A stretch of DNA of 64,000 bases from an uncultured Halobacteriales archaeon. Its GTDB lineage: Archaea > Thermoplasmatota > E2 > JACPAO01 > JAHWKR01. This document shows, piece after piece, positions 36,603 to 54,779 of this stretch. A program made the translations under genes and the position numbers. Under the pieces are notes generated by a model, which saw only the letters and a program-made list of their open reading frames with translations, had not been told where the DNA came from and did not search any database. Position 1 is the first letter of the stretch. Every line of letters begins with the position of its first letter. The stretch lies in NCBI GenBank assembly GCA_964452895.1, contig CAYVRY010000001.1:525-64524 (forward strand), read 5' to 3'.

Positions 36603-36784
36603 CAATCCGGTCCAGCCGCGATGGAGCCTATAATACTTGTTGGGGATGTCGTCGAAATGCCGCCCCCGGCCGTGTGGAAACCGTACAGTGTGCGCTTTCA
36701 GGCCCTGGGGACCGACGGGGCCTGCCTTGCGGGTGCCGGCCGGTGCGGGCGCCCCCATGCGCGAGCGCAGTCCGGGCACAAGGG

Positions 36785-39702: not shown

Positions 39703-40554
39703 CTAGGCGGTGAACTCCAGTTCCATCCCGGGAGACGGTGCGATCCAAGAGTACAGGAACAACCATTTCGTGCCCTCCGGCAACGTCCCGGCGCAGGCAT
39801 CACCACCGTTGTTCAGGTCCGTCCCGAGCGGTTCCAGGTCCTCGTTGAACGCGGTGCAGTCCGTGTCCTGGTAATCCTCGAGGCCGTTGGTCACGCTGAA
39901 GCTGAGGCCCCAGTAGCTCTCGTCGAGTTCCTGCCAGTGTCCGTCGATGGCGGGTTCTTCCGGGCCGAGAAGCGCGGAAACGCACATCAACCCGACTTCT
40001 TCGTCCAGGGCGCCGACGCATCCGAGCGTCGGCTGGTCGTACGTGAACACCAGCTCATCGGGCACGCTTTGGCCTGCCTCGATAGTCAGATCCACCGTCT
40101 CCTCGACGGTCTGGGAGTCTCCGTAGGTGAGCGTGAAGGTCGCCGTGAAGTTGCCGGCGTCATAGCCGTGAACGAGGGAATCCTCACCGTCGGTCACGTC
40201 GCCGTCTTCCGTGGCGCCGTCCCCAAGTGCGAGGCTCCAGGTCGCGTTCTCGTCGTTGGTCTCCACGTCCCATGTGAACGTGACGTTCACGGGCGCGGTC
40301 CCGCTTGTGGGGTCCGCGCTGAAGGATTCAATGGAGGCCGTCCACTCTGCGTCGTCTCCAGGACCCGACGTGTCATCGGGATCCGACGCGTCGTCGGGGT
40401 CCGAGGTGTCACCCGAGTCGTCACCGTCGGTCGCGTCGTCATCGGTCGTGTCTACGGGATCGTCCCCGCCGGAGAGGCACCCAGAGAATACCAAGGCAAA
40501 AAGCATGAGCACGGCGAGGGAGAGTTGGAATCGCATCAAGAGGGCGGCCCGCAT
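39703..40554 (-). CDS. secreted acidic PKD-domain lipoprotein
   Basis: Signal plus lipobox-like LVFSGC; Asp/Thr-rich linker; PKD fold (SADPTSGTAPVNVTFTWDVE...GNFTATFTLTYGDSQ). An oligo-T run on the coding strand (A6 at 39617-39622 on the plus strand) follows its stop. Confidence 0.7.
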   Translation of the reverse strand: MRAALLMRFQLSLAVLMLFALVFSGCLSGGDDPVDTTDDDATDGDDSGDTSDPDDASDPDDTSGPGDDAEWTASIESFSADPTSGTAPVNVTFTWDVETNDENATWSLALGDGATEDGDVTDGEDSLVHGYDAGNFTATFTLTYGDSQTVEETVDLTIEAGQSVPDELVFTYDQPTLGCVGALDEEVGLMCVSALLGPEEPAIDGHWQELDESYWGLSFSVTNGLEDYQDTDCTAFNEDLEPLGTDLNNGGDACAGTLPEGTKWLFLYSWIAPSPGMELEFTA

Positions 40555-40726: not shown

Positions 40727-40799
40727 GGGCCCGTGGTCTAGGGGTTATGACGGCGCCCTTACAAGGCGCAGATCACCGGTTCAAATCCGGTCGGGCCCA
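40727..40799 (+). tRNA. tRNA-Val (anticodon UAC)
   Basis: Folded by hand: acceptor GGGCCCG/CGGGCCC, anticodon stem GCGCC/GGCGC with loop CTTACAA, T-arm ACCGG-TTCAAAT-CCGGT, discriminator A. No encoded CCA. Confidence 0.85.
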
Positions 40800-41294: not shown

Positions 41295-41367
41295 AGCCCC
41301 GTAGTGTAGAGGCCAATCATGGGGGACTCTGGATCCCCCGACCGCGGTTCGAATCCGCGCGGGGCTA
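41295..41367 (+). tRNA. tRNA-Gln (anticodon CUG)
   Basis: Folded by hand: acceptor AGCCCCG/CGGGGCT, anticodon stem GGGGA/TCCCC with loop CTCTGGA, T-arm CGCGG-TTCGAAT-CCGCG, discriminator A. No CCA. Confidence 0.85.
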
Positions 41368-43140: not shown

Positions 43141-44997
43141 GTGCCTTCTTCTCGCCGCGTCTTGTTCTTTCGGCGTTTCGCCGCTGTGACCAACTCCAGC
43201 GCGCGCCAGGCCGCCGACCAGGAGGCTCGTTTGCAGGCCATGCGGTGGACGGAGACCCGCGACGGGAACCGCCGGATCTCGTTGGCCACCTTGCCGGTTC
43301 TGGCGCTGCTCGGTCTCTATCTGCTGGTTTGGCCACCGCCGGATCTGGGGCGGCTGGCGGGCGCCATCGCGCTCGGGATGGCCGGCGTGATCCTCCTCGT
43401 CGTCTTGACGGCCCTGCAGCCCAACAGCGACCCGGGCCTGGCGGTCCCGTTGAGCACGGGAAGTTCCGTGGCCTTGGCCGCGTTGCTCACTGCGTTCCTG
43501 GTGGTCAGTGGCGAACCGGCGGCCGCGGTGGGTCTCTCGCTCGTGGTCGTCGCGGCGGGGGTCTTCATCCTGTCCGTCCCTGCACTCGTGGTGATCGCGC
43601 TCGCGGTCCATGTCGGATTCATGATGGCGGTCGTTCACCATGGTGGCGACACGGCGTGGTTGTTGGCCGGTGCGGGTCTGGTCTTGTCCGTGGTGTTGGC
43701 GGGTCTCGCGCACCACCGGCAGATACGCGTGTTGAAGGCAACGCTTCGCCTGGCGGACCGGGAGCGACGTCATGAGGTGGAGATGGAGAAGGCCTTCCGC
43801 AGATCGCGTGATGCGGAGCTGAACGCGAAGCGGCTTTCCGAGTCGGCTTCGGCCGGGATCCAGGCGCAGCGTGAGCGGGAGGCGTTGCGCGGGCGCATGC
43901 AGTCGATCCTGGACAGTGCGGGGGAAGGGATCATCGGGACGGACCATCAGGGCCGTGTGGTTTTCGTCAATGAGGCGGCCGCCCGGTTGACCGGCTTCCC
44001 GGAGGGTCAACTTGTGCGGGAGAACCTGCATGAACTCGTGCATCATTCCCGTGCAGACGGCTCTGTGTATCCGGCCTCGGAGTGTCCGGTCCGGGAGGTC
44101 CTGGACCGGCGTCGTGTCCGGGAGGTGGAAGGGGAGGTGTTCTGGCATCGCGACGGTTCTTCTTTCCCGGTGTCGTACGTGGCGAGCCCGTTGGTCGAGG
44201 AGGGGAAGGTGCGGGGGGTCGTCGTGGTTTTCCAGGATGTGACGGAACGTGCGGAACTGGAGAAGATGAAGGATGAGCTGGTCAGTGTGGTCAGTCATGA
44301 ACTGCGCACCCCGCTGACCTCGATCCACGGTTCGTTGAAGCTGCTCTCCGGCACCATGAAGGACGCCTTGCCGAAGCAGGGGGCGAAGCTCATCGACATG
44401 GCTTCGCGCAACACGGAGCGTCTGATCCGGCTGGTCAATGACCTGTTGGACCTGGAGCGGCTGCGGGCCGGGCGGTTCGAGATGGCGGTCTCGCCCGTGG
44501 GCACCAGGGAGCTCGCGGTGGAGGCGGTCCAGAGTCTGCAGGGTTTCGCGCACAGCCACGACGTCCGTCTCGTGACCGCCGGGGAGGACGTGACGATCGT
44601 CGCGGACGGACATCGGGTCCATCAGGCTTTGGTGAACCTGATCTCGAACGCGGTGAAGTTCTCCCCGATCGGGGGCACCGTGCGGGTGAGCACCGAGATG
44701 GATCCGGACCGGGTCTGGTTCAGTGTGGTGGACGAGGGACCGGGGATCCCTCGCGACAAACAGAAACAACTGTTCCGGCGGTTCTCCCAGTTGGACGTGG
44801 GCGACGCCCGGGACAAAGGGGGAAGCGGGTTGGGTCTTGCGATCACGCGGGGCATCGTGGAGGCCCACGGCGGACATGTGGGTCTCGTCAGCGAGCCGGG
44901 GAAAGGCAGCACGTTCTACATGATGCTGCCGCGGGAGAACATGGAAACGGGCGAAGACATCCGCGGGGAGGACCCCAACGAGGTGGATGTACAATGA
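43141..44997 (+). CDS. membrane-bound PAS sensor histidine kinase
   Basis: About 6 N-terminal TM helices, a PAS region, H-box HELRTPLTSIHGSLKLL, and N/G1/G2 boxes (LISNAVKFSP...DEGPGIP...GGSGLGLAI). The start may be the ATG near 43240. Confidence 0.85.
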   Translation: MPSSRRVLFFRRFAAVTNSSARQAADQEARLQAMRWTETRDGNRRISLATLPVLALLGLYLLVWPPPDLGRLAGAIALGMAGVILLVVLTALQPNSDPGLAVPLSTGSSVALAALLTAFLVVSGEPAAAVGLSLVVVAAGVFILSVPALVVIALAVHVGFMMAVVHHGGDTAWLLAGAGLVLSVVLAGLAHHRQIRVLKATLRLADRERRHEVEMEKAFRRSRDAELNAKRLSESASAGIQAQREREALRGRMQSILDSAGEGIIGTDHQGRVVFVNEAAARLTGFPEGQLVRENLHELVHHSRADGSVYPASECPVREVLDRRRVREVEGEVFWHRDGSSFPVSYVASPLVEEGKVRGVVVVFQDVTERAELEKMKDELVSVVSHELRTPLTSIHGSLKLLSGTMKDALPKQGAKLIDMASRNTERLIRLVNDLLDLERLRAGRFEMAVSPVGTRELAVEAVQSLQGFAHSHDVRLVTAGEDVTIVADGHRVHQALVNLISNAVKFSPIGGTVRVSTEMDPDRVWFSVVDEGPGIPRDKQKQLFRRFSQLDVGDARDKGGSGLGLAITRGIVEAHGGHVGLVSEPGKGSTFYMMLPRENMETGEDIRGEDPNEVDVQ

Positions 44998-45057
44998 CGT
45001 GGATCACCAGGCGTGTGATTTTTTTGGGTTCACGAGCCGGAATGGCGATAGGGAGGT

Positions 45058-45447
45058 ATGGGCATGACGCGGCAGGTATTGATCATTGACGACGACGAGG
45101 ACATCCGGGAAGTTGCGAAGATGGCGCTGGAGGCCACCACCACATGGGGGGTCCGGGCCTTGGCGGACGGGCCGTCCGGGCTGGAGGCGGCCCGTGCGGA
45201 TCCACCGGATGCGATCCTTCTGGATTACATGATGCCGGGCATGGACGGGCTCACGGCGCTGGGTGAATTGAAGAAGAACGACTCGACGCGGCACGTCCCG
45301 GTGGTCGTGTTCACCGCGAAATCGGAACCGGGGCTCGCCCAGCGGCTGCACGACGCCGGGGCGATCGGGCACGTGGTCAAGCCGTTCGATCCCATGAGCT
45401 TGGCCGAGAAACTGGAGGGACTCTTGGGTTGGAACCGCGAGCGTTGA
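45058..45447 (+). CDS. single-domain CheY-like response regulator receiver
   Basis: VLIIDDDEDIRE...DAILLDYMMPGMDG...VVFTAK...KPF. Confidence 0.85.
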   Translation: MGMTRQVLIIDDDEDIREVAKMALEATTTWGVRALADGPSGLEAARADPPDAILLDYMMPGMDGLTALGELKKNDSTRHVPVVVFTAKSEPGLAQRLHDAGAIGHVVKPFDPMSLAEKLEGLLGWNRER

Positions 45448-47993
45448 AAAAACTTCATACGACCGATGGGGCTCGCACGGAGAAGAGGCCGGGGCCGGAC
45501 CGGGTCCCGCCCGCGTTGGTCCCACTGTGGCAGCGGGCCCGTGGGAGCATGCAGGGACGCCTTGGCGTGTTGCAAAGCGCTTTGGCGGAACTGGAAAACG
45601 GCGGCATTTCCATCGGGACCCGGGAAGCGGCGATCCGGGAGTCGCACAAACTCGCCGGCAGCCTCGGTACCTACGGCCTCTTGCACGGCTCGGAAGTTGC
45701 GCGGGAGATTGAAGAGCGTCTTGAGCACGATGCACTGGTCCGCGCGGATTCACCCTGGTTGCGCGCCCGCGTCGAACGGATTCAGCAGCTGCTCGAGGAA
45801 GCCGGGGGCCAAGGCACGCCGCAGCGCGCCCCTGGGGACACCGGACCCCCACCCGTTTCCCTGGGCGGGCCCACCCCTGTGCACTGGGACCCGGAACATC
45901 CCACGCCGGGAACCGTGCATGCGGACGGGGCCACGACGGAGGATCGCCGGCAGACACCGGCCGCCCGCCGCGCCCCGGTGGAGGCGCACCATGGCCGGGG
46001 GCCGCTGGCGCGCTTTCTTCGCAGTGTGTTGGAGGACCTGGTGGAGCAGGAAGCCTTCGTAGCGAAGCTGATTCGCGCCTCTGGACACGGTTCCCCCCAA
46101 GAACCGCAGTTGGCCACCCGGGCGGCCAGGGCCGCTGCGCTGGCGCAGGCGGAAGAGGGACTTGCCGGTTTGTCAAGGCGGTTGCAGCGCATCGGTCTGG
46201 ACCGCCCGGCGCATCAGGCCCGGTTGTTGGCCGCCTGCTTCAAGCCGGGCATGAAAAGCTCCGAGGCGGTGCACGTGGCGAAGGGGCTTCTTGAGTTGGT
46301 GCGGTCGTTGACGCGGTGGTGCCCTGAGATCCCAGCGCGATGGGACGACGCCTTGGTCTGGGTCGTCTCCAGGGATCCCGACTGGCGCGATGAAATGGGG
46401 GCGGCGTTGGAGGCCATGGGGCAACGCGTGATGCTGTCGGCCCAGGCGCACGACGCGGGTTTGTGGATGCAGACGAAGAGACCCACGGGCGTCGTCGCGC
46501 ACGCGGCTGACCCGGGCGATTCACTGGGCCTGCCTGACGGTCTTCTGGGGCCGGCTGGAGGGTTGCCGATCCTCGTCGTCTTGGACCAGCCGGGAATCGA
46601 CGACCGGGTACGTGCCGCGCGCGCGGGCGCCCACCGGGTCGTGGAGCGCGCCGCTGCACCCCGGGAGATCGCCACCACGTTCCGCGATCTGGTGCAGTCG
46701 CGTCAACGTACGGGGGGCCGGGTGCTCGTCGTGGACGACGATGAGACGATCGTTTCCATGGTGCGGGAGGTACTGGTCTGGCACGGCTTCGAGGTCACGG
46801 CGGTGGTGGGGACACACCGAATCTGGGATGCATTGGAGTCTTGTTCCCCGCATTTGGTGGTCACCGATCTGAACATGCCCGGCATCGACGGCGTGGACCT
46901 CTGCCTGGCCTTGCGCACGGACCCGCGCTGGGAGAACCTGAGCGTGGTGTTCTTGTCCGCCCGCGATGACGAACAGAGTCTGCGGCGGGTGTTCGAAGCG
47001 GGAGCGGACGATTTCGTGCCGAAACCTGTGGACCCGGCGGTCCTGGTGGCACGGGTGCAGAACCGGTTGGCCCGGAAGAACGCGCGCATGGCCACCGGCC
47101 ATCTTGACCCGGTGACCCGTTTGCCGGCCGGACCGTCCTTCGAGGATCGGCTGAAGGGTCTTGTGGAGACGTCGGCCAAGGAGCACTCCAGGATCACCAT
47201 CGCCGTGGTGCGGCTTGATTCGGCGTCGCGTCTGCGCCAGGAGGTCGGGTACGTGGCCACCGAGCGCGAGGAGGCGCGTCTGGCTCGGGTGCTTGCGGCT
47301 CACCTGGAGGTCGGTTCCTTGGTGGGCCGGTTGGACATGGATCGGTTCGTGGTGGCACTGGACGGCATGGATGCCCAGGATGCGAAGAAGACGCTGCGGC
47401 TCGTGGTGGAAGAGTTCCAGGCGGCGCGGATGCGCGCCGGGCAAGAGTCCTTGACCGGGGCGGGTGTTTCCGCTGGGGTCGCGCAACGTTCGCTCCATGG
47501 CAGGGACCTGCGTGAGCTCATGGATCAAGCGGACGCGGCGCGCCGACACGCGGAACAGGCGGGGGGCTCGCGGGTCCACATCGCGGGCGGGGAAGGGCAA
47601 GGCCGTCCCGTCGAGAAGGTGGATGTGCTCGTCGTGGACGACGACCCCACCATCGGGCATCTGCTCGTGGAGACGTTGAGCCAGAAAGGCTGGCGGGTCT
47701 CATGGGAGTGCGACAGTGCGCGAGCACTCAAGCGCCTGGCCGGTGAACATCGTGACCTGAAGGCCCGCGTGATCCTTCTGGATGTGAACATGCCCGGGAT
47801 GGACGGTCTCACGGTGCTCCGGTTGTTGGCGAAGCGGGGGGTGGTGCCCGAGACCCGGGTGATCATGCTCACCGTGCGGGCGCGAGAGGATGAGGTGGTG
47901 CGTGCGTTGGGTCTGGGCGCATCGGACCATGTCGCGAAACCGTTCAGTGTCCCCGTGTTGGCCTCCCGCGTCAAGCGGGCTTTGGAGGATTGA
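45429..47993 (+). CDS. multidomain phosphorelay protein: HPt - pseudo-receiver - REC - degenerate GGDEF - REC
   Basis: HPt motif ESHKLAGSLGTYGLL. REC1 VLVVDDDETIV...VVTDLNMPGIDG...KP. GGDEF fold with DPVTRLP...ITIAVVRLD...GRLDMDRFVVAL...ADAARRHAEQAGGSRV, where GRLDMDRF replaces RYGGEEF. REC2 VLVVDDDPTIG...LLDVNMPGMDG...KPF. The TTG start overlaps the CheY stop (alternative ATG at 45549). Confidence 0.75.
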   Translation: MEPRALKKLHTTDGARTEKRPGPDRVPPALVPLWQRARGSMQGRLGVLQSALAELENGGISIGTREAAIRESHKLAGSLGTYGLLHGSEVAREIEERLEHDALVRADSPWLRARVERIQQLLEEAGGQGTPQRAPGDTGPPPVSLGGPTPVHWDPEHPTPGTVHADGATTEDRRQTPAARRAPVEAHHGRGPLARFLRSVLEDLVEQEAFVAKLIRASGHGSPQEPQLATRAARAAALAQAEEGLAGLSRRLQRIGLDRPAHQARLLAACFKPGMKSSEAVHVAKGLLELVRSLTRWCPEIPARWDDALVWVVSRDPDWRDEMGAALEAMGQRVMLSAQAHDAGLWMQTKRPTGVVAHAADPGDSLGLPDGLLGPAGGLPILVVLDQPGIDDRVRAARAGAHRVVERAAAPREIATTFRDLVQSRQRTGGRVLVVDDDETIVSMVREVLVWHGFEVTAVVGTHRIWDALESCSPHLVVTDLNMPGIDGVDLCLALRTDPRWENLSVVFLSARDDEQSLRRVFEAGADDFVPKPVDPAVLVARVQNRLARKNARMATGHLDPVTRLPAGPSFEDRLKGLVETSAKEHSRITIAVVRLDSASRLRQEVGYVATEREEARLARVLAAHLEVGSLVGRLDMDRFVVALDGMDAQDAKKTLRLVVEEFQAARMRAGQESLTGAGVSAGVAQRSLHGRDLRELMDQADAARRHAEQAGGSRVHIAGGEGQGRPVEKVDVLVVDDDPTIGHLLVETLSQKGWRVSWECDSARALKRLAGEHRDLKARVILLDVNMPGMDGLTVLRLLAKRGVVPETRVIMLTVRAREDEVVRALGLGASDHVAKPFSVPVLASRVKRALED

Positions 47994-47994
47994 T

Positions 47995-49080
47995 ATGACC
48001 GGGGTACTGGATGACGTCCTGCATTTGGCGGTCGTGGTGATCATCGCCGGGGCGACGGTTGCGTTCCTGCTCGTTTTCCTCCATGGTTGGCGTGAACAAA
48101 GAGACCGGGTACATTATGCGCGCGTGGAGGTGAAGCTGCGCGGCCCGTTCTTGTTGGCGATCCAGGGTGAGCGGCACGAGGCGGGGCTGGACTCACGGCT
48201 GAACAGGGTGCCGGTCCGGCATCGAACTCGCCTCTTGATGCAGGTGGCACGGCTTGTCCGGGGTGAAGAGCGTGCCCGGCTGACGCGTTTCGCGGCGCGC
48301 ACGGGGGTCTTGCAACAGGCGGCCCGGGCGACAAGGAGCAGCCTATGGTGGCGCCGGTTGCACGCGGTGCGGGTCTTCACGGCGACGGGGGGCGGCGAGA
48401 ATGAGGTGCCGGCCTTGTTGGCGGACCCGCATCCGCTGGTGCGCTCGGAGGCGGCCTCTTGGTGCGCCGGGCATCCGCGCCCGGAGAACATCCGGCGCTT
48501 GCTGAACCTGATGGACACGCCGTCCATGGCGGACCGGATCGCGGTGATCGACGCACTCGTGTCCATTGGGCCTCCGGCGCTCAGACCGTTGGCCGATCAT
48601 CTCCAGGCGTGCACCGAAGAGGGGCGCAAGGCGGGCCTGACGGCAGCGTTGGGGTTGGCGCACCCGCTCTTTTTGCCCCCTGCGCTGGCCGCGGTCCGGG
48701 ACCCGGCGTTCGGCGTACGCGTGCAGGCGGCGCGGTTGTTGTCCATTCTGGGCGGGGAACAAGCGGTGGAGGCGATCACTCGGCTCCTTGAGGACGACCG
48801 GCCGGTGGTCCGGGCGGCCGCGGCACGGGGCCTGGGGCGACTGGGGGCTTGCTCGGCGGCGGGCAGTCTTGAGTTGCTGTTGGCGGATCGGCATCCGGAC
48901 CCGCGTCGCGACGCGGCGCTCGCCCTGGCGGAGTTGGGCGCATCGGGCTGGGTGTTGCTGCGGGAGACCGCCCGCCTGGGGGGCCCGGCGGGGCGGTTGG
49001 CCAATGCGGCCCTGGAATCGCTGGGTACGCCGGTACGGGTGCTTGAGCCGGTGGAAGTAGAGGGGAGGGCGGCGTCTTGA
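47995..49080 (+). CDS. membrane-anchored HEAT/PBS-lyase-repeat protein
   Basis: ATG 2 nt after the previous stop. N-terminal TM helix (LHLAVVVIIAGATVAFLLVFL) followed by several HEAT-like repeats (DPHPLVRSEAASW, DPAFGVRVQAARLL, DDRPVVRAAAARGLGRLG, HPDPRRDAALALAELG). Confidence 0.6.
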   Translation: MTGVLDDVLHLAVVVIIAGATVAFLLVFLHGWREQRDRVHYARVEVKLRGPFLLAIQGERHEAGLDSRLNRVPVRHRTRLLMQVARLVRGEERARLTRFAARTGVLQQAARATRSSLWWRRLHAVRVFTATGGGENEVPALLADPHPLVRSEAASWCAGHPRPENIRRLLNLMDTPSMADRIAVIDALVSIGPPALRPLADHLQACTEEGRKAGLTAALGLAHPLFLPPALAAVRDPAFGVRVQAARLLSILGGEQAVEAITRLLEDDRPVVRAAAARGLGRLGACSAAGSLELLLADRHPDPRRDAALALAELGASGWVLLRETARLGGPAGRLANAALESLGTPVRVLEPVEVEGRAAS

Positions 49081-50507
49081 TCGAGCATTTTCTCACGCAG
49101 TTCCTCGTGGCATTGCAGATCTTTGCGATCTCGTTCTTTTTCGTGGCGAACACGTTCTACGGACTGCAGGTGTTCATGGCGTTCACGACCGTCCAAGACC
49201 ATGTGCGCGCGCATCGGGACCAGGACACCGAGCGTATGGCCCGCTCTCACGCGTTGCCGCGGATCAGCCTGATCGCCCCGGCGTACAATGAAGAGTCCAC
49301 GGTGGCCGAGAGCCTGCGTTCCCTTCTTGCTTTGCATTATCCGGGTCTTCAAGTGGTCCTGGTCAGCGACGGTTCCACGGACCGCACGCTGGACGTGTTG
49401 AAGTCGGTCTACAGATTGACGCCGAGCCGACGGCTTTACGACGAGGGGATCCCGACGCGCGGGGTGCGCGGCATCTATCGCAGCGAAGTCTATCCGGATC
49501 TCTTGGTGGTGGACAAGGAGAACGGGGGGAAGGCGGATGCGTTGAACGTGGGGTTGAACCTGGCGGACGGGGAGTTGGTGTGCGCCATCGACGCGGACAC
49601 CTTGATCGAGTCGGACGCCTTGCTGCGTCTCGTGCGGCCGTTCGTGGAGGACGCCGACGTGGTCGCGGCGGGGGGGAACATCCGGGTGGCCAACGGCTGC
49701 CGGATGGGTCGGGGCCGCGTGGAGGAACCCCGGGTCCCGCGCCGGCCCTTGCCGGGGTTCCAGATGGTGGAATACACGCGGGCGTTCCTGGTGGGCCGCA
49801 TGGGTCTCAACCGGTTGGGCGGCAACCTGGTGATCTCAGGGGCGTTCGGCCTGTTCCGGCGCGACGCGATGATCAAGACGGGCGGGTATTCCACGTCGAC
49901 GATCGGGGAGGACATGGAACTCGTGCTCCGCCTGCGCCGCCATGGCAAGGACCACGGGGGCCCCCACAAGGCGGACTTCATCCCGGACCCGGTGGCGTGG
50001 ACAGAGGTCCCGCAGACGTTGGGCAGTCTGGGCAGGCAGCGCGACCGGTGGCACCGGGGGCTGGCTCAGACCATGATGGCGCATCGGGGCGTGATGTTCC
50101 GCCCGCGGTACAAGGCGATGGGTTCTGTGGTCTATCCCTATTTCTTGTTCGTGGAGCTCTTGGCGCCGCTCGTGGAACTGCTCGGGCTGATCGGCCTTGC
50201 CGTGGGGGTCGGCCTCGGGGTCTTGGATGTCACCTTCGCCCTTTGGTTCCTGGTTTTTGCTTATGGTTACGGCCTGCTTCTTACAAGCATCGCGATGATG
50301 CTGGACGGGATCACTTTCCGGCTCTATCCGCGCCAACGGGACCGGCTTTGGTTCATGCTCTGGGTGGTCCTGGAGCCGTTCGGATACCGCCAGCTCACGG
50401 TGTTTTGGCGTCTGCGGGGTCTGATTCGTTTCGTGATGGGGCATCAGGAGTGGGGCGTCATGCAGCGTCAGGGGTTCCAGTCGGACGCGCCCGGTGCGCC
50501 GGTGTGA
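49077..50507 (+). CDS. processive family-2 glycosyltransferase (PgaC/BcsA/chitin-synthase-like polysaccharide synthase)
   Basis: N-terminal TM helix, ISLIAPAYNEE, DAD, and QRDRWHRG (the QxxRW motif), plus C-terminal TM helices. The TTG start overlaps the HEAT gene's stop by 4 nt. Confidence 0.8.
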   Translation: MIEHFLTQFLVALQIFAISFFFVANTFYGLQVFMAFTTVQDHVRAHRDQDTERMARSHALPRISLIAPAYNEESTVAESLRSLLALHYPGLQVVLVSDGSTDRTLDVLKSVYRLTPSRRLYDEGIPTRGVRGIYRSEVYPDLLVVDKENGGKADALNVGLNLADGELVCAIDADTLIESDALLRLVRPFVEDADVVAAGGNIRVANGCRMGRGRVEEPRVPRRPLPGFQMVEYTRAFLVGRMGLNRLGGNLVISGAFGLFRRDAMIKTGGYSTSTIGEDMELVLRLRRHGKDHGGPHKADFIPDPVAWTEVPQTLGSLGRQRDRWHRGLAQTMMAHRGVMFRPRYKAMGSVVYPYFLFVELLAPLVELLGLIGLAVGVGLGVLDVTFALWFLVFAYGYGLLLTSIAMMLDGITFRLYPRQRDRLWFMLWVVLEPFGYRQLTVFWRLRGLIRFVMGHQEWGVMQRQGFQSDAPGAPV

Positions 50508-50580
50508 TCCGACAACGCCCAGATCACCCGGAGTGACCCGCGCGAAAACGCTACAACCACCCGGCTGTTCGCCATGGTTG

Positions 50581-50796
50581 ATGTCCATGCGTACGCTGAT
50601 CGTCGTGACCCTCGTCCTGCTCGCCCTGCTGGCCTTCACGCCGCAACCCGCGGCCGCGCAGCACGTGCCCTGTTTCTCGGACTACGACCACGGGATCACG
50701 TTCCAGTGCGAGCCCGATGCATCGGATCCGCTTTGCATCGAGTGGTTCTTCGGGATCGGGGTCGCCAAGGTCTGCCCGCGCGACCTGCTTCCCTGA
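50581..50796 (+). CDS. small secreted 4-Cys protein (hypothetical)
   Basis: The ATG at 50581 opens MSMRTLIVVTLVLLALLAFTPQPAAA as a signal peptide, then about 45 aa with 4 Cys. Confidence 0.3.
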   Translation: MSMRTLIVVTLVLLALLAFTPQPAAAQHVPCFSDYDHGITFQCEPDASDPLCIEWFFGIGVAKVCPRDLLP

Positions 50797-50818: not shown

Positions 50819-51259
50819 TCAGCCCATCTCTTCGACCACGAACCACACGTCGCCCCGGCCTTGCCCGTTGGCGGCTCCGGGTCCTTGGTCCGCGGCGAAA
50901 TAGTAGAGCGGCCGGTCGTCATGCGCGACCTGCATGGTCCCGTTCCGGTCGATCAGCGACAGGCGCTCTTCGAGTCCGTCGGATGCGTCCGGGACCTCAT
51001 CGGCAAGAAGCGGGGGCCAGTTCTCGGCGCATTCGTCGAAGCAGGTGCTCTCGCCGGGTCCGTCGTTCGTGAAGATGTAGAGCGTCATCCCGTCACCATC
51101 GACGAGGATGCTGCCCAGTTCGGAGTGGTCGTCGAAGCGCAGTTCAGCCGCATCGCCGCCGTCCATGCATCCTGCCAGTGCCACGAACGCAAGCAGGAGG
51201 ACGATCAGGAGGGGAAAGTGGACCCAGGAGTTCGTGCTCAATCGCATGCCTGACGGCAT
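50819..51259 (-). CDS. COG4315-type (secreted repeat) lipoprotein
   Basis: Lipobox LAGC. Two copies of the repeat G(D)GMTLY(I/Y)F..D.GPG(E/A)S.C...C...WPP (GDGMTLYIFTNDGPGESTCFDECAENWPP; RPLYYFAADQGPGAANGQGRGDVWFVV). Confidence 0.6.
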   Translation of the reverse strand: MPSGMRLSTNSWVHFPLLIVLLLAFVALAGCMDGGDAAELRFDDHSELGSILVDGDGMTLYIFTNDGPGESTCFDECAENWPPLLADEVPDASDGLEERLSLIDRNGTMQVAHDDRPLYYFAADQGPGAANGQGRGDVWFVVEEMG

Positions 51260-51337: not shown

Positions 51338-53668
51338 TCAGGATTTCGCGGCCCGGATCACGTTCAATGCGCTGCCGGCCTGGAACCAGCGCACCTGGTC
51401 TTCGTTCAGGCTGTGGTCCACGTTGAAGGTGTCGCGCGTGCCGTCCGGGTGTTCCAGGGTGACCTTGAGCGGTCTGCCGGGGGCGAGCCCGTCCAGGCCC
51501 TGGATGGAGACCGTGTCGCCTTCTTGCACTTTCTCGTAATCCGCGCCGTCTTCGAAGGTCAAGGGCAAGACGCCTTGTTTCTTCAGGTTCGTCTCGTGGA
51601 TCCGGGCGAAGCTGCGTGTGATCACGGCGGCGCAGCCCAAGTGGCGGGGTTCCATGGCGGCGTGTTCCCGGGACGACCCTTCGCCGTAGTTCTCGTCGCC
51701 CACCACGACCCAGCGCTGGCCTGCCATTTTCAGGTTGCGCGCGATCTGGCTCAATGCAACGTCTTCTCGGCCGCCTACGGGGTCGTTGCCGGTTCCTGCT
51801 TCACCGGTGAAGGCGTTGACGGCGCCGCTGAAGAGGTTGTCGCTGATGTTGTCCAGGTGACCACGGAAGCGCAGCCAGGCACCGGCCGGGGAGATGTGGT
51901 CTGTGGTGCATTTGCCCTGGGCTTTGAGAAGAAGCGGCAGCCGCTTCATGTCCTGGCCGTCCCACTGCGGGAAGGGTTCCAACAGGGCGATCCGGTCGCT
52001 TCGTGGGTCCACGTGGACGTCCACCTGTGCCCCGTCGTCGGCGGGGGGTTGGTAGCCTGCAGGGTCCTGCACGAAGCCGCCGGGCGGCACCTCGGGGGCG
52101 GGTTTGGGCGGCACGAGGCGCCAGGGTTTGCCGTCGGCGTCCTTGAGTTCGTCGCTGGTGGGGTCGAAATCGAGTCGGCCGGCGAGCCCGAGGGCCATGA
52201 CGATCTCGGGGCTGCCCATGAAGGCGAGCGTGTTCGGGTTGCCGTCGTTGCGTTTCGGGAAGTTGCGGTTGTAGGAGGTGACGATCACGTTGGTCGCGTC
52301 GTCCTTGAGTTCCGGGCGTCGCCATTGTCCGATGCAGGGCCCGCATGCGTTGGCGAGCACCTGCGCGCCGACGGCCTTCATTTTCTGCATCTGGCCGTCG
52401 CGTTCAATGGTTGCCCGCACCTGTTCGCTGCCTGGGGTCACGAGGAAGGAGGTGGCCACACCGATCCCGTGCGCCTGGGCTTGTTGCACGACGTCCGTGA
52501 CGCGGGCGATGTCTTCGTAGCTGGAGTTCGTGCAGGAGCCCACCAGTGCCGCACTGATCCGGGCCGGGTAGTCCTCCTCGCGCACCGCTTTCTTGATCTG
52601 GCTGATCTCGCGGGCCAGGTCCGGTGTGTGGGGGCCCACCAGGTGGGGTTCCAGTTCGTCCAGGTCGATCACGACGACGCGGTCGTAGTAGCGCTCCGGG
52701 TTTTCGGCGATCTGTTTGTCCGCGATGATGTGGTCTTGGTGGTCCTCGAGGATCGGCACGAGGGCGTTGCGGCCCGTTGATTCCAGGTAGGTGCGCATGC
52801 GGCGATCGTACGGGAATATGGAGGTGGTGGCGCCGAGCTCGGCGCCCATGTTCGTGATCGTGCCTTTGCCGGTGGCGCTGATGGACTCGGTGCCGGGTCC
52901 GAAGTATTCCACCACGTGGTTCGTGCCGCCCTTGACGGTGAGTTCGCCGCACAGTTTCAGGATCACGTCCTTGGGGGCGCTCCAGCCGTCGAGTTTTCCT
53001 TCCAGCCGGACGCCGGTGATCTTCGGGTGAAGCAGTTCCCAGGGCATCCCGGCCATGACGTCCACGGCGTCCGCACCGCCGACGCCGCTGGCCCACATGC
53101 CGAGCCCGCCGGCGTTCGGGGTGTGGCTGTCGGTCCCGATCATCATCTGCCCGGGAAAGGCGTATTGCTCGAAGACCACCTGGTGGATGATCCCGGCGCC
53201 GGGTTTCCAGAACCCCATGCCGTAGCGTTTCGCGGCCGTGGCGAGGAAATCGAAGACCTCCTTGTTCTCGCCCAGGGAGTTGCTCAGGTCGGGCTCGGCG
53301 CCTTCCTGCGCACGGATCAGGTGGTCACAGTGGACCGTGGTGGGGACCGCGGTGGTGTCCATCTTGGCGAGCATGAACTGCAGCACGGCCATCTGCGCGG
53401 TCGCGTCCTGCATGGCGACGCGGTCCGGGCGCAGCATGAGGTAGCTCTTGCCTCGTTCCAGGGCGGCCCCGGCGGGGTCGTCCAAGTGGCCGTAGAGGAT
53501 CTTCTCGCTCAGGGTGAGCGGATGACCCAGGCGTTCGCGCACGACCTGCAGACGCTGGGCGATCCGTTCGTGGACTTGACGGGTGAAATCGGGGGTGGAT
53601 TCGACTTGAGGCATGGGGCCCTCTCCGGGTCCAGGCGCCCATCCGGATGGGCGGTCGCTGGCAGTCAC
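51338..53668 (-). CDS. aconitate hydratase (aconitase/IRP family)
   Basis: Conserved blocks GIIHQVVFEQYAFPG, MIGTDSHTPNAGGLG and VGSCTNSSYEDI, with SR at the C-terminal substrate-binding site. 776 aa. Confidence 0.9.
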   Translation of the reverse strand: MTASDRPSGWAPGPGEGPMPQVESTPDFTRQVHERIAQRLQVVRERLGHPLTLSEKILYGHLDDPAGAALERGKSYLMLRPDRVAMQDATAQMAVLQFMLAKMDTTAVPTTVHCDHLIRAQEGAEPDLSNSLGENKEVFDFLATAAKRYGMGFWKPGAGIIHQVVFEQYAFPGQMMIGTDSHTPNAGGLGMWASGVGGADAVDVMAGMPWELLHPKITGVRLEGKLDGWSAPKDVILKLCGELTVKGGTNHVVEYFGPGTESISATGKGTITNMGAELGATTSIFPYDRRMRTYLESTGRNALVPILEDHQDHIIADKQIAENPERYYDRVVVIDLDELEPHLVGPHTPDLAREISQIKKAVREEDYPARISAALVGSCTNSSYEDIARVTDVVQQAQAHGIGVATSFLVTPGSEQVRATIERDGQMQKMKAVGAQVLANACGPCIGQWRRPELKDDATNVIVTSYNRNFPKRNDGNPNTLAFMGSPEIVMALGLAGRLDFDPTSDELKDADGKPWRLVPPKPAPEVPPGGFVQDPAGYQPPADDGAQVDVHVDPRSDRIALLEPFPQWDGQDMKRLPLLLKAQGKCTTDHISPAGAWLRFRGHLDNISDNLFSGAVNAFTGEAGTGNDPVGGREDVALSQIARNLKMAGQRWVVVGDENYGEGSSREHAAMEPRHLGCAAVITRSFARIHETNLKKQGVLPLTFEDGADYEKVQEGDTVSIQGLDGLAPGRPLKVTLEHPDGTRDTFNVDHSLNEDQVRWFQAGSALNVIRAAKS

Positions 53669-53741: not shown

Positions 53742-54779
53742 TCAACCGGTCTGGATGATCCCTTCGTATTCCATGTTCACCCCAAGATGGTGCGACACGC
53801 GCAGGGTGAGCGTCTCTCCCTGGTAGGGACTCAGGCTGTCGCCCACGAGCCACAATTGTTCGAAGGGGTACGGGGTGACGCCCCAGGTGATGGTTTCGCC
53901 TTTCGGGTCCATGAGCGTCATGTCCATGTCCACGGTGTGCCCGTTTGTGTCCATGATCCCGCCGTCCCCCCGGGGTTGCACGAAGGCGAGAAGCACCTGG
54001 TCGTTCTCTCCCACCTCGATCTCGTGATCGGCATGGGTCATGCCCGAATCGGGGACCCCGGTAAGGAACCGATCCGAAAGCAGGAGTTCCCCGGAGATCG
54101 TCTGGTTCTCGAGGACCAGCTGCCCCTGGATGTCCAGGTCTGCGGGTCGGAACTCCTTGGTCTCCAGTTGGACTTCGGATGCGTGTTCTCCCCCCGTGAG
54201 GATGCGCACGTTGTGCTCTTCCTGTTGGGTCATGGTCACGGTGACGAACAAGGTGATCCCGCCCAGGCCCAGGATGGCCGGCTGCGATTCGGGTCCCTCC
54301 AGTTCGAAGGATACGGGTGTGACCTCGTCCGGCATCAGGGGGCCGTCCAGCTTCGTCGAGGCGACAAGGGGGGCGTGCAGGCTGCTGCCCAGCCAGACCG
54401 CCACGTCGGGGAGCACGCCTTCGGCCGGGAAGACGGGGGCGTCCGTGGTGAGGTAGAGGGTGATCGTGGCGTTGTCCGCGGAGATCCAGTCCCAGGGACT
54501 CAGTTCGGGGTCGAACCCTTCCAGGTTGAACTGCGGGTGGGCGCCGCTGCGGGTGGCCCACTTCGTGATGAAGTCGCCGGCCTCGATGCTTCCTTCCCCT
54601 TGCGGCGCCTGTTCGACCAGCGTCGAGTCGGGGCTCAGGTAGAGCGTACGCGGGGCGAACGACGACGCGGGGGGTTGCGTGGGATCGTTTTCGCCGCCAT
54701 CGTTGTTGGAGGTCGAGAAGCAACCGGCGAGGCTGACCAGGATCAAGAGCGAGACCAACAGGCCGGCCGTAACACGCAT
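53742..54779 (-). CDS. hypothetical lipoprotein (LAGC lipobox)
   Basis: MRVTAGLLVSLLILVSLAGCFSTSNNDGGEND... with unbiased composition. The overlapping ORFs in other frames are Arg/Gly-rich. Confidence 0.5.
   Translation of the reverse strand: MRVTAGLLVSLLILVSLAGCFSTSNNDGGENDPTQPPASSFAPRTLYLSPDSTLVEQAPQGEGSIEAGDFITKWATRSGAHPQFNLEGFDPELSPWDWISADNATITLYLTTDAPVFPAEGVLPDVAVWLGSSLHAPLVASTKLDGPLMPDEVTPVSFELEGPESQPAILGLGGITLFVTVTMTQQEEHNVRILTGGEHASEVQLETKEFRPADLDIQGQLVLENQTISGELLLSDRFLTGVPDSGMTHADHEIEVGENDQVLLAFVQPRGDGGIMDTNGHTVDMDMTLMDPKGETITWGVTPYPFEQLWLVGDSLSPYQGETLTLRVSHHLGVNMEYEGIIQTG

What the first reader, a model, noticed from the sequence alone, without database searches (positions are those of the whole stretch)
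43141..50507. Co-directional locus linking a multi-step phosphorelay with a degenerate GGDEF module to a processive GT2 polysaccharide synthase in an archaeon
Five genes lie on one strand with short gaps or overlaps (45429/45447, 47993/47995, 49077/49080). They are a TM-PAS histidine kinase, a CheY-like receiver, a large HPt/pseudo-REC/REC/degenerate-GGDEF/REC protein, a TM-anchored HEAT-repeat protein, and a QxxRW glycosyltransferase with flanking TM helices. This layout recalls bacterial second-messenger-controlled exopolysaccharide synthases (Pga, Bcs, Pel), but the background here is archaeal, where GGDEF proteins are rare. The HEAT-repeat membrane protein next to the synthase has no obvious counterpart in described systems.
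Basis: partly seen in the sequence, partly recalled or inferred. Interest (0 to 1): 0.72.

Follow-up and report, generated by a model that had tools for sequence, protein, structure and literature searches.

The report
Bacterial-type polysaccharide synthase cassette in archaeon
An archaeon carries a five-gene bacterial-type cassette acquired by horizontal transfer, in which a phosphorelay with a dead GGDEF domain sits beside a membrane HEAT-repeat protein and a polysaccharide synthase; the same HEAT-synthase pair is widespread in bacteria, and I found no description of it in the literature.

Summary
Five + strand genes at 43141-50507 encode a multi-TM PAS histidine kinase, a single receiver, an Hpt/pseudo-REC/REC/GGDEF/REC protein, a one-TM HEAT-repeat protein and a QxxRW family-2 glycosyltransferase. 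The last four overlap or abut.

The contig is archaeal. Its aIF5B scores 679 bits on the archaeal model and 188 on the bacterial one, and its nearest named relatives are Thermoplasmatota or "Euryarchaeota" MAGs.

The cassette is not an archaeal invention. The same gene order occurs in bacteria such as Longimicrobiaceae. A HEAT protein lies directly upstream of the synthase in 79 of 80 instances (78 of 79 relatives' loci plus the window). Among 63 bacterial loci with enough upstream sequence, an REC-containing protein lies upstream in 61.

The archaeal copies form one clade nested among bacterial sequences and keep the same insertion site in four assemblies. This fits a single old bacteria-to-archaea transfer.

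Most bacterial GGDEF domains keep the RxxD c-di-GMP I-site (27 of 35), and 7 keep GG[DE]EF. All four archaeal copies have lost both motifs.

The most likely function is phosphorelay control of an exopolysaccharide synthase through the HEAT adaptor, without c-di-GMP. I rate it a new variant of a known kind, of moderate interest.

The parts
43141..44997 (+). Sensor histidine kinase (618 aa). About six N-terminal TM segments (aa 46-190), PAS (aa 252-367), HisKA with H-box His386 (SHELRTPL, codon at 44296), and HATPase_c (aa 489-599). The true start may lie downstream, at Met34 (43240).
   Evidence: Pfam; hydropathy; motif; 42-50% identical to kinases of bacterial cassettes and 58% to the archaeal-clade relative L096
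45019..45025 (+). T7 run in the 60-nt kinase/receiver spacer. It may be an archaeal oligo-T terminator or attenuator. A GGGAGG follows, just before the receiver ATG.
   Evidence: only 18 runs of 6 or more T or A in the 64-kb window; function inferred, not tested
45058..45447 (+). Stand-alone receiver (129 aa) with canonical DDD, Asp56 and Lys108. Proposed first Asp of the relay.
   Evidence: Pfam Response_reg 4e-26; residues; 69% identical to L096 and 42-48% to bacterial cassettes
45429..47993 (+). 854-aa Hpt/pseudo-REC/REC/degenerate-GGDEF/REC protein, called HRGR in this report.
   Evidence: Pfam; family HMMs; alignments
45525..45797 (+). Hpt domain (aa 33-123) with the phospho-accepting His73 in ESHKLAGSLGTYG.
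   Evidence: Pfam Hpt 29.2 bits against a cutoff of 24.6; family HMM E 1.9e-27; His conserved in L096 and in bacterial copies
46356..46694 (+). Pseudo-receiver (aa 310-422). It lacks the conserved Lys, and in this genome it also lacks the acceptor Asp.
   Evidence: family REC HMM E 2e-16; not found by Pfam; alignment
46719..47069 (+). Receiver 1 (aa 431-547): DDD 436-438, Asp480, Ser510, Lys532.
   Evidence: Pfam; invariant columns
47103..47576 (+). Degenerate GGDEF domain (aa 559-716). It has DMDRF in place of GG[DE]EF and EVGS in place of the RxxD I-site. The substrate-binding N/R of DxLTGLxNRR and the DxD..FK residues are also lost.
   Evidence: Pfam GGDEF 6e-14; motif comparison
47622..47987 (+). 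Receiver 2 (aa 732-853): DDD 737-739, Asp785, Thr815, Lys837. It is the most conserved part of the protein and directly precedes the HEAT gene.
   Evidence: Pfam; invariant columns; a receiver abuts the HEAT gene in 56 of 63 bacterial loci
47995..49080 (+). Membrane-anchored HEAT-repeat protein (361 aa). It has one TM helix (aa 11-29) within a long helix 2-57, a basic stretch after the TM that suggests a cytoplasmic solenoid, and about nine helical repeats (aa 65-344). A SxxWWRRLxxVR motif lies at aa 115-126.
   Evidence: Pfam HEAT_2 1.5e-21; AF2 pLDDT 90.3; hydropathy; Foldseek finds only generic HEAT/ARM scaffolds; family alignments
49077..50507 (+). Membrane-integrated processive-type GT2 synthase (476 aa). 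It has an N-terminal TM helix, a GT-A domain with D98, D172xD174, G277-E278-D279 and Q321RDRW325, and C-terminal TM and interface helices (aa 343-453).
   Evidence: Pfam/NCBIfam; alignment; AF2 pLDDT 82.8; Foldseek top hits are Chlorella virus hyaluronan synthase (TM 0.69), BcsA and chitin synthases

Best explanation
The locus is a horizontally acquired, bacterial-type, synthase-dependent exopolysaccharide module.

Proposed mechanism:
1. A membrane PAS histidine kinase autophosphorylates on His386.
2. The phosphoryl group passes to Asp56 of the stand-alone receiver, then to His73 of the Hpt domain, then to Asp480 and/or Asp785 of the two intact receivers in the 854-aa protein. This is a classical His-Asp-His-Asp relay.
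3. The phosphorylated C-terminal receiver and the dead GGDEF module dock on the cytoplasmic solenoid of the one-TM HEAT protein.
4. The TM helix of the HEAT protein packs against the synthase, and this switches on polymerisation and translocation of a beta-linked (GlcNAc-type?) polysaccharide by the QxxRW GT2.

In most bacterial relatives the GGDEF domain supplies a c-di-GMP input, either by synthesis or by I-site binding. After transfer into this Thermoplasmatota-like archaeal lineage that input was lost, and only phosphorylation-driven protein-protein control remains.

Shown here: gene order, domains, catalytic and phospho-acceptor residues, conservation of the cassette, nesting of the archaeal clade among bacterial sequences, and loss of the GGDEF motifs.

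Inferred: the direction of phosphotransfer, the HEAT protein as adaptor, a secreted polymer as product, and independence from c-di-GMP.
For: Domains and residues.

Synthase fold: the AF2 model (pLDDT 82.8) matches the membrane synthases HAS, BcsA and Chs. Sequence search of the PDB gives BcsA as best hit.

Cassette conservation:
- The identical five-gene order occurs in Longimicrobiaceae.
- A HEAT protein is the upstream neighbour in 79 of 80 gene -1 products scanned, the window's included.
- The next gene upstream carries REC in 52, GGDEF in 33 and Hpt in 22 of 64.
- With my own HMMs, among 63 bacterial loci with at least 4 kb upstream: HEAT 62, REC 61 (56 abutting the HEAT gene), Hpt 42, GGDEF 38. 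Among the 26 loci with at least 50% synthase identity: HEAT, REC and Hpt 26 of 26, GGDEF 22 of 26.
- All five proteins are collinear homologues of the bacterial cassette proteins.

Archaeal host: aIF5B scores 679 bits on TIGR00491 against 188 on bacterial IF-2, and AlaXM is present. The nearest aIF5B relatives are Thermoplasmatota or 'Euryarchaeota' MAGs.

Stable inheritance: relatives L001, L094 and L095 keep the same synthase / Lipoprotein_15 / aconitase junction, and L096 keeps all five genes.

Transfer: the archaeal clade is monophyletic and nested among bacterial sequences. All 80 best species-representative genomes are bacterial.

Loss of c-di-GMP motifs: the archaeal copies read DMDRF, DSDRF, ELDRF and ELDRF with no RxxD. 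Among bacteria, 27 of 35 keep RxxD and 7 of 35 keep GG[DE]EF.

Export partners: TPR proteins (6 loci) and TPR+YaiO beta-barrel proteins (4 loci) follow the synthase in some bacteria, which fits a secreted polymer.

Precedent in archaea: response regulators there act mostly through protein-protein contacts, and REC-BcsA-like GT2 fusions exist in Methanobacteriaceae (PMC5847659).
Against: - No experiment or complex prediction links the HEAT protein physically to either the receiver or the synthase. No REC-HEAT or HEAT-GT2 gene fusion was found among the 80 loci.
- The polymer is unknown. The PgaC/IcaA model scores only 140 bits against a cutoff of 422.
- A T7 run between the kinase and the receiver may uncouple the kinase transcriptionally.
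- I could not survey the rest of the genome for GGDEF, EAL or PilZ genes, so a c-di-GMP source elsewhere is not excluded.
- The tree is neighbour-joining without support values.
- Codon usage of the cassette is only slightly different from the rest of the window (r 0.88 against a baseline of 0.94). Composition therefore neither proves nor dates the transfer.
Confidence: 0.6

Rival explanations
1. The system is still nucleotide second-messenger dependent. The degenerate GGDEF domain, the HEAT solenoid or the Arg-rich conserved C-terminal tail of the synthase binds c-di-GMP, or another nucleotide, made elsewhere in the archaeal cell. The phosphorelay only modulates this.
For: The ancestral bacterial cassette is clearly tied to c-di-GMP: 27 of 35 copies keep RxxD and 7 of 35 keep GG[DE]EF. 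The GGDEF fold is retained under selection in all four archaeal copies. Degenerate GGDEF domains can serve as nucleotide or protein-binding modules, for example PelD and GdpS (PMC11962490 is listed; the rest is my own knowledge). The HEAT and synthase proteins contain conserved Arg-rich motifs.
Against: Both known c-di-GMP contact motifs (GG[DE]EF and RxxD) and the GTP-binding residues are lost in all archaeal copies. No PilZ or other known receptor domain appears in any of the five proteins. GGDEF and EAL proteins are nearly absent from archaea (PMC5847659). No such gene appeared among the window ORFs I scanned.
Confidence: 0.15
2. The glycosyltransferase does not make a secreted exopolysaccharide. 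It makes a cell-envelope glycan, a short oligosaccharide (NodC-like chito-oligosaccharide) or a lipid-linked sugar, so the cassette controls envelope remodelling and not matrix formation.
For: Family-level hits are all below the curated cutoffs: PgaC 140 against 422, NodC 65 against 550, CelA 65 against 699. No deacetylase, hydrolase or export gene is consistently linked. The archaeon has a single membrane and needs no exporter.
Against: The QxxRW motif, the G-E-D motif and a C-terminal helical bundle are present. The best structural matches are channel-forming processive synthases (HAS TM 0.69, BcsA, chitin synthases). TPR and YaiO-barrel outer-membrane partners occur in several bacterial loci. 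Dol-P/Und-P sugar GT2 models score far lower.
Confidence: 0.15
3. The 854-aa protein and the HEAT-synthase pair are only co-regulated neighbours. The relay output goes elsewhere, for example to motility or transcription, and the HEAT protein is a structural subunit of the synthase unrelated to signalling.
For: No fusion or direct-contact evidence was found. The kinase is present on the same strand within 8 kb in only 15 of 63 bacterial loci. HEAT repeats are generic scaffolds.
Against: A receiver-containing gene abuts the HEAT gene in 56 of 63 loci spanning more than ten bacterial phyla. The genes overlap or abut in the window and in its relatives. Linkage conserved over that phylogenetic distance usually marks functional coupling.
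Confidence: 0.07
4. The locus is bacterial DNA mis-assembled or mis-binned into an archaeal contig, so there is no archaeal cassette.
For: Every close non-clade homologue is bacterial. GC is slightly higher in the cassette (0.66-0.68) than in its immediate flanks (0.62-0.64). Galperin et al. raised the same worry for bacterial-type regulators in archaeal MAGs.
Against: The window is continuous sequence that holds aIF5B (17.4-19.3 kb) and AlaXM (38.7-39.5 kb), both with archaeal best models. GC3 of the cassette genes (0.80-0.84) falls within the range of the other genes. Three independent assemblies from other samples reproduce the synthase / Lipoprotein_15 / aconitase junction, and L001 continues collinear with the window for about 6 kb. 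The clade's synthase divergence (71-78%) is comparable to the aIF5B divergence among relatives (79-85%).
Confidence: 0.03

Closest known systems
PgaCD / IcaAD poly-beta-1,6-GlcNAc synthases
   Same: This is the best-scoring curated family for the synthase (TIGR03937, E 7e-41). Size and topology are similar: a GT2 with N- and C-terminal TM helices and a QxxRW motif. Both need a small membrane partner encoded next to the synthase. PgaCD is allosterically switched by a signalling input (c-di-GMP; my own knowledge).
   Different: The score of 140 bits is far below the 422-bit equivalog cutoff. The partner here is a 361-aa one-TM HEAT solenoid, not the small PgaD or IcaD. No PgaB/IcaB deacetylase or PgaA porin is present. 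The polymer is unknown.
Pel system inner-membrane complex (PelD degenerate GGDEF receptor, PelE helical-repeat membrane protein, PelF, PelG)
   Same: Both combine a catalytically dead GGDEF domain that serves as the regulatory module with a membrane-anchored alpha-helical-repeat protein thought to scaffold the complex (my own knowledge of Pel). Bacterial members of the present family keep the RxxD I-site with a degenerate A-site, like PelD.
   Different: The Pel transferase is a cytosolic GT4 (PelF) with a separate transporter (PelG), whereas here it is an integral processive GT2. PelD has GAF and TM segments and no receivers or Hpt. PelE is TPR-like, not HEAT. There is no sequence relationship, and the archaeal copy lacks the I-site.
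BcsA-type cellulose synthase with PilZ, and the other membrane-integrated GT2 synthases (HAS, chitin synthase)
   Same: BcsA is the closest solved sequence relative (E 1e-14). The GT-A plus TM-channel fold is shared (Foldseek: HAS TM 0.69, BcsA 0.58), as are the D, DxD, ED and QxxRW motifs.
   Different: There is no PilZ domain and no BcsB-like partner. The protein is much shorter (476 aa against about 750-870). Regulation is supplied in trans by the HEAT protein and a response regulator.
PleD / WspR response-regulator diguanylate cyclases and multi-step relays (ArcB, BarA, LuxU-type Hpt)
   Same: It shares the REC-(REC)-GGDEF logic and scores on the PleD model (NF007135, 147 bits). Hpt, H-box and acceptor Asp residues are all present. 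Some bacterial members have a canonical GGEEF with RxxD.
   Different: The 147 bits are below the PleD cutoff of 474. The architecture Hpt-pseudoREC-REC-GGDEF-REC, with a receiver after the GGDEF domain, is not that of PleD or WspR. The archaeal GGDEF cannot be a cyclase.
Archaeal REC-BcsA-like GT2 response regulators (MTH_548 type, Methanobacteriaceae)
   Same: This is the only described archaeal link between a receiver domain and a family-2 (PF13641) glycosyltransferase (PMC5847659). It supports phosphorylation-controlled glycan synthesis in archaea.
   Different: There the receiver is fused to the transferase, with no HEAT protein, Hpt or GGDEF. The lineage differs, and nothing indicates common origin with this cassette.

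Membership tests
Membrane-integrated processive GT2 polysaccharide synthases (BcsA/HAS/Chs/PgaC kind) | GT-A family-2 catalytic domain with D, DxD, (T/G)ED and QxxRW motifs | tested here: met
   Pfam PF13641, PF00535 and PF13632. D98, D172-A-D174, G277-E278-D279 and Q321-R-D-R-W325 are invariant in 20 homologues.
Membrane-integrated processive GT2 polysaccharide synthases (BcsA/HAS/Chs/PgaC kind) | TM helices flanking the catalytic domain that build a translocation channel | tested here: met
   Hydropathy shows N-terminal and C-terminal TM segments. The AF2 model has pLDDT 82.8. The best PDB folds are HAS, BcsA and chitin synthases. The channel itself is inferred from the fold match.
Membrane-integrated processive GT2 polysaccharide synthases (BcsA/HAS/Chs/PgaC kind) | Produces and exports a polymer | not testable with these tools
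   No biochemical data. Indirect support comes from TPR and YaiO-barrel partners in some bacterial loci.
PgaC/IcaA PNAG synthase (TIGR03937 equivalog) | Score at or above the curated cutoff of 422.3 bits | tested here: not met
   140.5 bits.
PgaC/IcaA PNAG synthase (TIGR03937 equivalog) | Operon partners PgaD/IcaD, deacetylase PgaB/IcaB and (in diderms) PgaA | tested here: not met
   The window has none of them. No deacetylase family recurs downstream in 56 bacterial loci.
c-di-GMP-controlled exopolysaccharide synthases | Linked GGDEF domain with a catalytic GG[DE]EF A-site | tested here: not met
   The window reads DMDRF. Archaeal relatives read DSDRF, ELDRF and ELDRF. 7 of 35 bacterial relatives do meet it.
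c-di-GMP-controlled exopolysaccharide synthases | Known c-di-GMP receptor site (RxxD I-site, PilZ, MshEN and similar) | tested here: not met
   No RxxD in the four archaeal copies. No PilZ or other receptor family in the five proteins. 27 of 35 bacterial relatives keep RxxD.
c-di-GMP-controlled exopolysaccharide synthases | c-di-GMP binding or dependence shown | not testable with these tools
   Needs binding assays. The rest of the genome is not available to search for cyclases.
Multi-step His-Asp-His-Asp phosphorelay | Histidine kinase with H-box His and HATPase domain | tested here: met
   HisKA 6e-18 and HATPase_c 1e-28. SHELRTPL contains His386.
Multi-step His-Asp-His-Asp phosphorelay | Intermediate receiver with the acceptor Asp | tested here: met
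   The 129-aa REC has DDD, Asp56 and Lys108. In some bacterial versions the kinase is itself a hybrid kinase in addition.
Multi-step His-Asp-His-Asp phosphorelay | Hpt domain with a conserved His | tested here: met
   Pfam Hpt 29.2 bits against a cutoff of 24.6. His73 lies in HKLAGS, conserved in L096 and in bacteria. Family HMM E 1.9e-27.
Multi-step His-Asp-His-Asp phosphorelay | Terminal receiver(s) with acceptor Asp, Thr/Ser and Lys | tested here: met
   REC1 has D480, S510 and K532. REC2 has D785, T815 and K837. All are invariant across the archaeal and bacterial copies aligned.
Multi-step His-Asp-His-Asp phosphorelay | Phosphotransfer demonstrated in that order | not testable with these tools
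   Needs in vitro phosphotransfer profiling.
PleD family response regulator (NF007135) | Score at or above the curated cutoff of 474 bits, with REC-REC-GGDEF architecture | tested here: not met
   147.4 bits. The architecture is Hpt-pseudoREC-REC-GGDEF-REC.
Archaeal REC-BcsA-like GT2 response regulators (MTH_548 type) | Receiver domain fused to the PF13641 glycosyltransferase in one polypeptide | tested here: not met
   The synthase has no REC domain. The receivers are on separate proteins.

The most novel reading that the evidence does not exclude
The HEAT-GT2 pair defines a large class of synthase-dependent polysaccharide machines, spread over many phyla, for which I found no published description. 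In this class a one-TM helical-repeat adaptor couples a response-regulator/GGDEF signalling protein to the synthase. The archaeal copy is then a natural experiment showing how a bacterial c-di-GMP input is stripped away and replaced by pure phosphorelay control after transfer into a domain of life that lacks the messenger.
Probability: 0.35. Interest if true: 0.72.

Novelty: new variant of a known kind. Interest (0 to 1): 0.55.

Why it matters
Synthase-dependent exopolysaccharide systems such as cellulose, PNAG, alginate and Pel are the paradigm for how signalling controls biofilm matrix production. A HEAT-repeat membrane adaptor tied to an Hpt/REC/GGDEF/REC regulator would add another regulatory design. 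It occurs in at least a dozen bacterial phyla, many of them poorly studied (Gemmatimonadota, Chloroflexota, Acidobacteriota, Nitrospirota and others).

Its presence in a Thermoplasmatota-like archaeal lineage is notable because Hpt, GGDEF and two-component systems are otherwise rare there. It gives a concrete, datable case of inter-domain transfer of a complete sensing-to-matrix module. It also offers a testable case of what happens to a second-messenger domain in a host without that messenger. For uncultured archaea it predicts regulated matrix or aggregate formation.

Tried and rejected
- Exact-sequence look-ups of window proteins (synthase, receiver, aIF5B) found no retrievable contig. The organism was therefore placed only through aIF5B homologues.
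It returned only seven distant GT2s and no new archaeal relatives.
- MAFFT suggested a second, His-less Hpt-like domain at aa 191-297 of the 854-aa protein. I tested and rejected this: no HMM or BLAST signal.
- Gene fusions (REC-HEAT, GGDEF-HEAT and similar) that would have shown direct interaction: none in 80 loci.
- The sigma-70 promoter and intrinsic-terminator scan found nothing above shuffles, and it is not appropriate for an archaeon.
- Seven literature searches combining HEAT repeat with GT2, PgaC, c-di-GMP, Hpt and response regulator found no description of the cassette. The library lacks most subscription-journal papers, so absence is not proof.
- The PDB sequence and fold searches of the HEAT protein returned only generic or designed HEAT/ARM repeats.
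- The profile search of 1.84 billion representatives is contaminated by giant HEAT-repeat proteins, so it gives only a lower-bound impression of family size. About 80 of the best 150 are single-stretch proteins, nearly all 337-421 aa plus three shorter fragments.

Full report
OBSERVATION

The five + strand ORFs are present exactly as described:
- 43141-44997, 618 aa
- 45058-45447, 129 aa
- 45429-47993, 854 aa
- 47995-49080, 361 aa (a database protein identical to this 361-aa product supports the ATG at 47995)
- 49077-50507, 476 aa

All five show the frame-specific GC3 of 0.80-0.84 that marks real genes in this 65% GC window. The last four genes overlap or abut: a 19-nt overlap, a 1-nt gap and a 4-nt overlap. 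The kinase is separated from the receiver by 60 nt.

DOMAINS

The kinase has about six N-terminal TM segments, one PAS domain, HisKA with the H-box SHELRTPL (His386) and HATPase_c.

The 129-aa protein is a canonical receiver with Asp56 and Lys108.

The 854-aa protein, called HRGR here, contains in order:
- Hpt (29.2 bits against a cutoff of 24.6; His73 in HKLAGS).
- A Pro/Gly-rich linker and a helical region.
- A pseudo-receiver, found only by a family-specific HMM (E 2e-16). It lacks the Lys and, in this genome, the Asp.
- An intact receiver (D480, S510, K532).
- A GGDEF domain (6e-14).
- A second intact receiver (D785, T815, K837).

The GGDEF domain is thoroughly degenerate. It has DMDRF for GG[DE]EF and EVGS for the RxxD I-site. 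The substrate-binding residues upstream are also lost.

The 361-aa protein has one TM helix (aa 11-29) followed by basic residues. A confident AF2 model (pLDDT 90.3) shows a long helix 2-57 and about nine helical repeats. Structure searches find only generic or designed HEAT/ARM scaffolds.

The glycosyltransferase carries D98, D172xD174, G-E278-D279 and Q321RDRW325. Its AF2 model (pLDDT 82.8) matches the membrane-integrated processive synthases best: Chlorella virus hyaluronan synthase at TM 0.69, then BcsA and chitin synthases. By sequence its best curated family is PgaC/IcaA, but at 140 bits against a cutoff of 422. It is therefore a PgaC-like relative, not a PgaC.

HOST

The window encodes an archaeal-type initiation factor aIF5B at 17369-19252. 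It scores 679 bits on TIGR00491 (cutoff 555) against 188 bits on bacterial IF-2. An AlaXM-type editing protein lies 3.6 kb upstream of the cassette. Its best models are archaeal, although the AlaXM score (229 bits) is below that model's cutoff of 300.

The nearest aIF5B sequences with names are a "Euryarchaeota archaeon" MAG (70% identity, GCA_019347805.1) and many Thermoplasmata or Thermoplasmatota MAGs at about 55%. The archaeal background is therefore supported. The organism is a divergent Thermoplasmatota-like archaeon.

THE CASSETTE IS BACTERIAL IN ORIGIN

A search of 5.8 billion proteins gave three synthases at 71-73% identity. After those came thousands at 59% identity or lower, and every one that carries a name is bacterial: Longimicrobium, Nitrolancea, Pseudomonadota.

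A Longimicrobiaceae genome has exactly the same order: a hybrid PAS kinase, a receiver, Hpt/REC/GGDEF/REC, HEAT and GT2, followed by two TPR proteins.

A scan of one genome per GTDB species returned 80 loci. All are bacterial: Gemmatimonadota, Chloroflexota, Actinomycetota, Acidobacteriota, Nitrospirota, Binatia, Bacteroidota, Ignavibacteriota, Marinimicrobia, Bdellovibrio, Myxococcota, Cloacimonadota and Lentisphaerota.

Neighbourhood counts:
- I scanned 80 products of the gene directly upstream of the synthase: the window's own and those of 79 relatives' loci. HEAT_2 was found in 79.
- The next gene upstream has REC in 52, GGDEF in 33 and Hpt in 22 of 64.
- With HMMs built from the family, I examined the 63 bacterial loci that have at least 4 kb upstream. 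HEAT was found in 62 and REC in 61, with a receiver ending right before the HEAT gene in 56. Hpt was found in 42, GGDEF in 38 and a kinase core in 15.
- In the 26 loci with at least 50% synthase identity, HEAT, REC and Hpt are found in all 26 and GGDEF in 22.

All five window proteins have collinear homologues in these bacterial cassettes: kinase 42-50%, REC 42-48%, HRGR 34-39%, HEAT 35-40%, synthase 53-57%.

The conserved core is therefore [Hpt-REC-(GGDEF)-REC] | HEAT | GT2. A profile search of 1.84 billion cluster representatives suggests the HEAT partner family is large. About 80 of the best 150 hits are single-stretch proteins, nearly all 337-421 aa plus three shorter fragments. Giant HEAT-repeat proteins contaminate the raw counts.

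THE ARCHAEAL CLADE

Relatives from four other samples keep the cassette. They are L001, L094, L095 and L096, and two further HEAT proteins (P0243, P0244) also belong here.
- L096 has all five genes.
- L001, L094 and L095 reproduce the junction of synthase, Lipoprotein_15 on the opposite strand, and aconitase that is seen in the window.
- L001 stays collinear with the window for about 6 kb.

This argues strongly against a chimeric assembly and for vertical inheritance within the lineage. In a neighbour-joining tree of 85 synthases the archaeal sequences form one clade nested inside the bacterial subfamily (no support values).

GC is slightly raised in the cassette (0.66-0.68 against 0.62-0.64 in the flanks). 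Codon usage is only mildly different from the rest of the window (r 0.88 against a baseline of 0.94). Both fit an old, ameliorated transfer.

WHAT CHANGED AFTER TRANSFER

Among 35 bacterial GGDEF domains of the family:
- 7 have GG[DE]EF plus RxxD. These are presumptive phosphorylation-controlled cyclases.
- 20 have a degenerate A-site but keep RxxD. These are presumptive c-di-GMP receptors of the PelD kind.
- 8 lack RxxD.

All four archaeal copies lack both motifs (DMDRF, DSDRF, ELDRF, ELDRF). The Hpt His and the Asp, Thr/Ser and Lys residues of both intact receivers are all conserved.

None of the five proteins has a PilZ or other known c-di-GMP receptor domain. Galperin et al. found GGDEF regulators essentially absent from archaea, with one GGDEF protein known at that time. 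They found Hpt only in Methanomicrobia, and only 3 kinases and 4 regulators in 11 Thermoplasmata genomes. They concluded that archaeal regulators act mainly by protein-protein contacts, and they noted REC-BcsA-like GT2 fusions in Methanobacteriaceae (PMC5847659).

MECHANISM (INFERRED)

1. The kinase His386 passes phosphate to REC Asp56.
2. Phosphate moves to Hpt His73, then to REC1 Asp480 and/or REC2 Asp785.
3. The phosphorylated C-terminal module, made of the dead GGDEF domain and REC2, binds the cytoplasmic solenoid of the HEAT protein.
4. The TM helix of the HEAT protein sits against the synthase, in the way PgaD, IcaD or the BcsB anchor sit against their synthases.
5. This opens or closes the active site, and a beta-linked polymer is made and extruded.

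Some diderm bacteria add TPR proteins (6 loci) or TPR+YaiO-barrel proteins (4 loci) downstream of the synthase. This fits export of a polymer. The archaeon, with one membrane, has none.

The T7 run at 45019-45025 may terminate or attenuate the kinase transcript. In relative L096 the kinase and receiver are only 4 nt apart.

RIVALS

- Residual nucleotide dependence (0.15).
- A non-secreted glycan product (0.15).
- Mere co-regulation without physical coupling (0.07).
- Contamination or chimerism (0.03).

The evidence for and against each is in the structured fields.

COMPARISON AND NOVELTY

The system works like the known regulated synthase-dependent exopolysaccharide machines (Pga, Bcs, Pel). 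It fails the membership tests for PgaC and PleD, whose curated cutoffs are not met. It also fails the test for a c-di-GMP-controlled system in the archaeal copy. It meets the sequence-level tests for a processive membrane GT2 and for a four-step phosphorelay.

Seven full-text searches found no paper describing a HEAT-repeat partner of a GT2 synthase or this cassette. The library lacks most subscription-journal papers, so this is not proof of absence.

I classify the locus as a new variant of a known kind. Its claim of archaeal uniqueness was not, and its second-messenger analogy applies to the bacterial ancestors and probably not to this copy.

Interest is moderate (0.55). The two points worth following are the widespread HEAT-GT2 module, for which I found no description, and the loss of the c-di-GMP input after inter-domain transfer.

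Noticed in passing
window 45019-45025: T7 run in the 60-nt spacer between the kinase and the receiver, followed by GGGAGG and the receiver ATG. It is one of only 18 runs of 6 or more T or A in 64 kb. It may be an archaeal oligo-T terminator, which would make the kinase a separate transcript.
   Followed up: partly
window 50494-50796 (+): Small ORF directly after the synthase, with a signal-peptide-like stretch (MRTLIVVTLVLLALLAFTPQPAAA) and a Cys-rich tail of about 45 aa. It has no Pfam hit. It is absent from relatives L001, L094 and L095, where Lipoprotein_15 follows the synthase after about 40 nt, so it is probably not part of the cassette.
   Followed up: partly
window 17369-19252 (+): Archaeal aIF5B (TIGR00491, 679 bits). 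A 100% identical database protein sits on a 78,427-bp NCBI contig that could not be retrieved. The nearest named relative is a 'Euryarchaeota archaeon' MAG at 70% identity, so the lineage seems sparsely sampled.
   Followed up: yes
window 39703-40554 (-) and 53742-54779 (-): Two Asp/Thr-rich acidic proteins with an N-terminal hydrophobic segment ending in a lipobox-like G-C, and no Pfam hit. They are probably archaeal surface lipoproteins. The second is conserved next to aconitase in L001.
   Followed up: no
window 40727-40799 and 41295-41367 (+): tRNA-Val(TAC) and tRNA-Gln(CTG) lie about 2 kb upstream of the cassette. tRNA genes are common integration sites, which may be relevant to how the cassette arrived. 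No repeats or integrase were looked for.
   Followed up: no
window 46356-46694 (aa 310-422 of the 854-aa protein): In this genome the pseudo-receiver has a two-residue deletion that removes the Asp which the three archaeal relatives keep (GVV--AHA against GVVLDA). All four lack the conserved Lys.
   Followed up: partly
bacterial loci L007, L008, L010, L011, L013, L019, L032 and others (Gemmatimonadaceae): This subfamily has GG[AS]DF, GGAEF or GWAEF with a strictly kept RxxD I-site. A conserved ORF of about 170 aa and unknown function sits immediately downstream of the synthase.
   Followed up: no
bacterial loci, genes flanking the synthase: TPR+YaiO beta-barrel proteins of the NfrA-like outer-membrane type (my own knowledge) flank the synthase in a few loci, 4 downstream and 2 upstream. 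TPR-only proteins follow it in 6 loci. This hints at an outer-membrane export arm in diderm versions.
   Followed up: partly
window 50819-51259 (-), 51338-53668 (-): A Lipoprotein_15 repeat protein and a 776-aa aconitase form a junction with the cassette that is conserved in four independent assemblies. This is useful as a marker of the insertion site.
   Followed up: yes
window 32305-36779 (-): A run of four co-directional genes, one with DUF58 and three without any Pfam hit, in the region of highest GC (0.69) in the window. Not examined.
   Followed up: no
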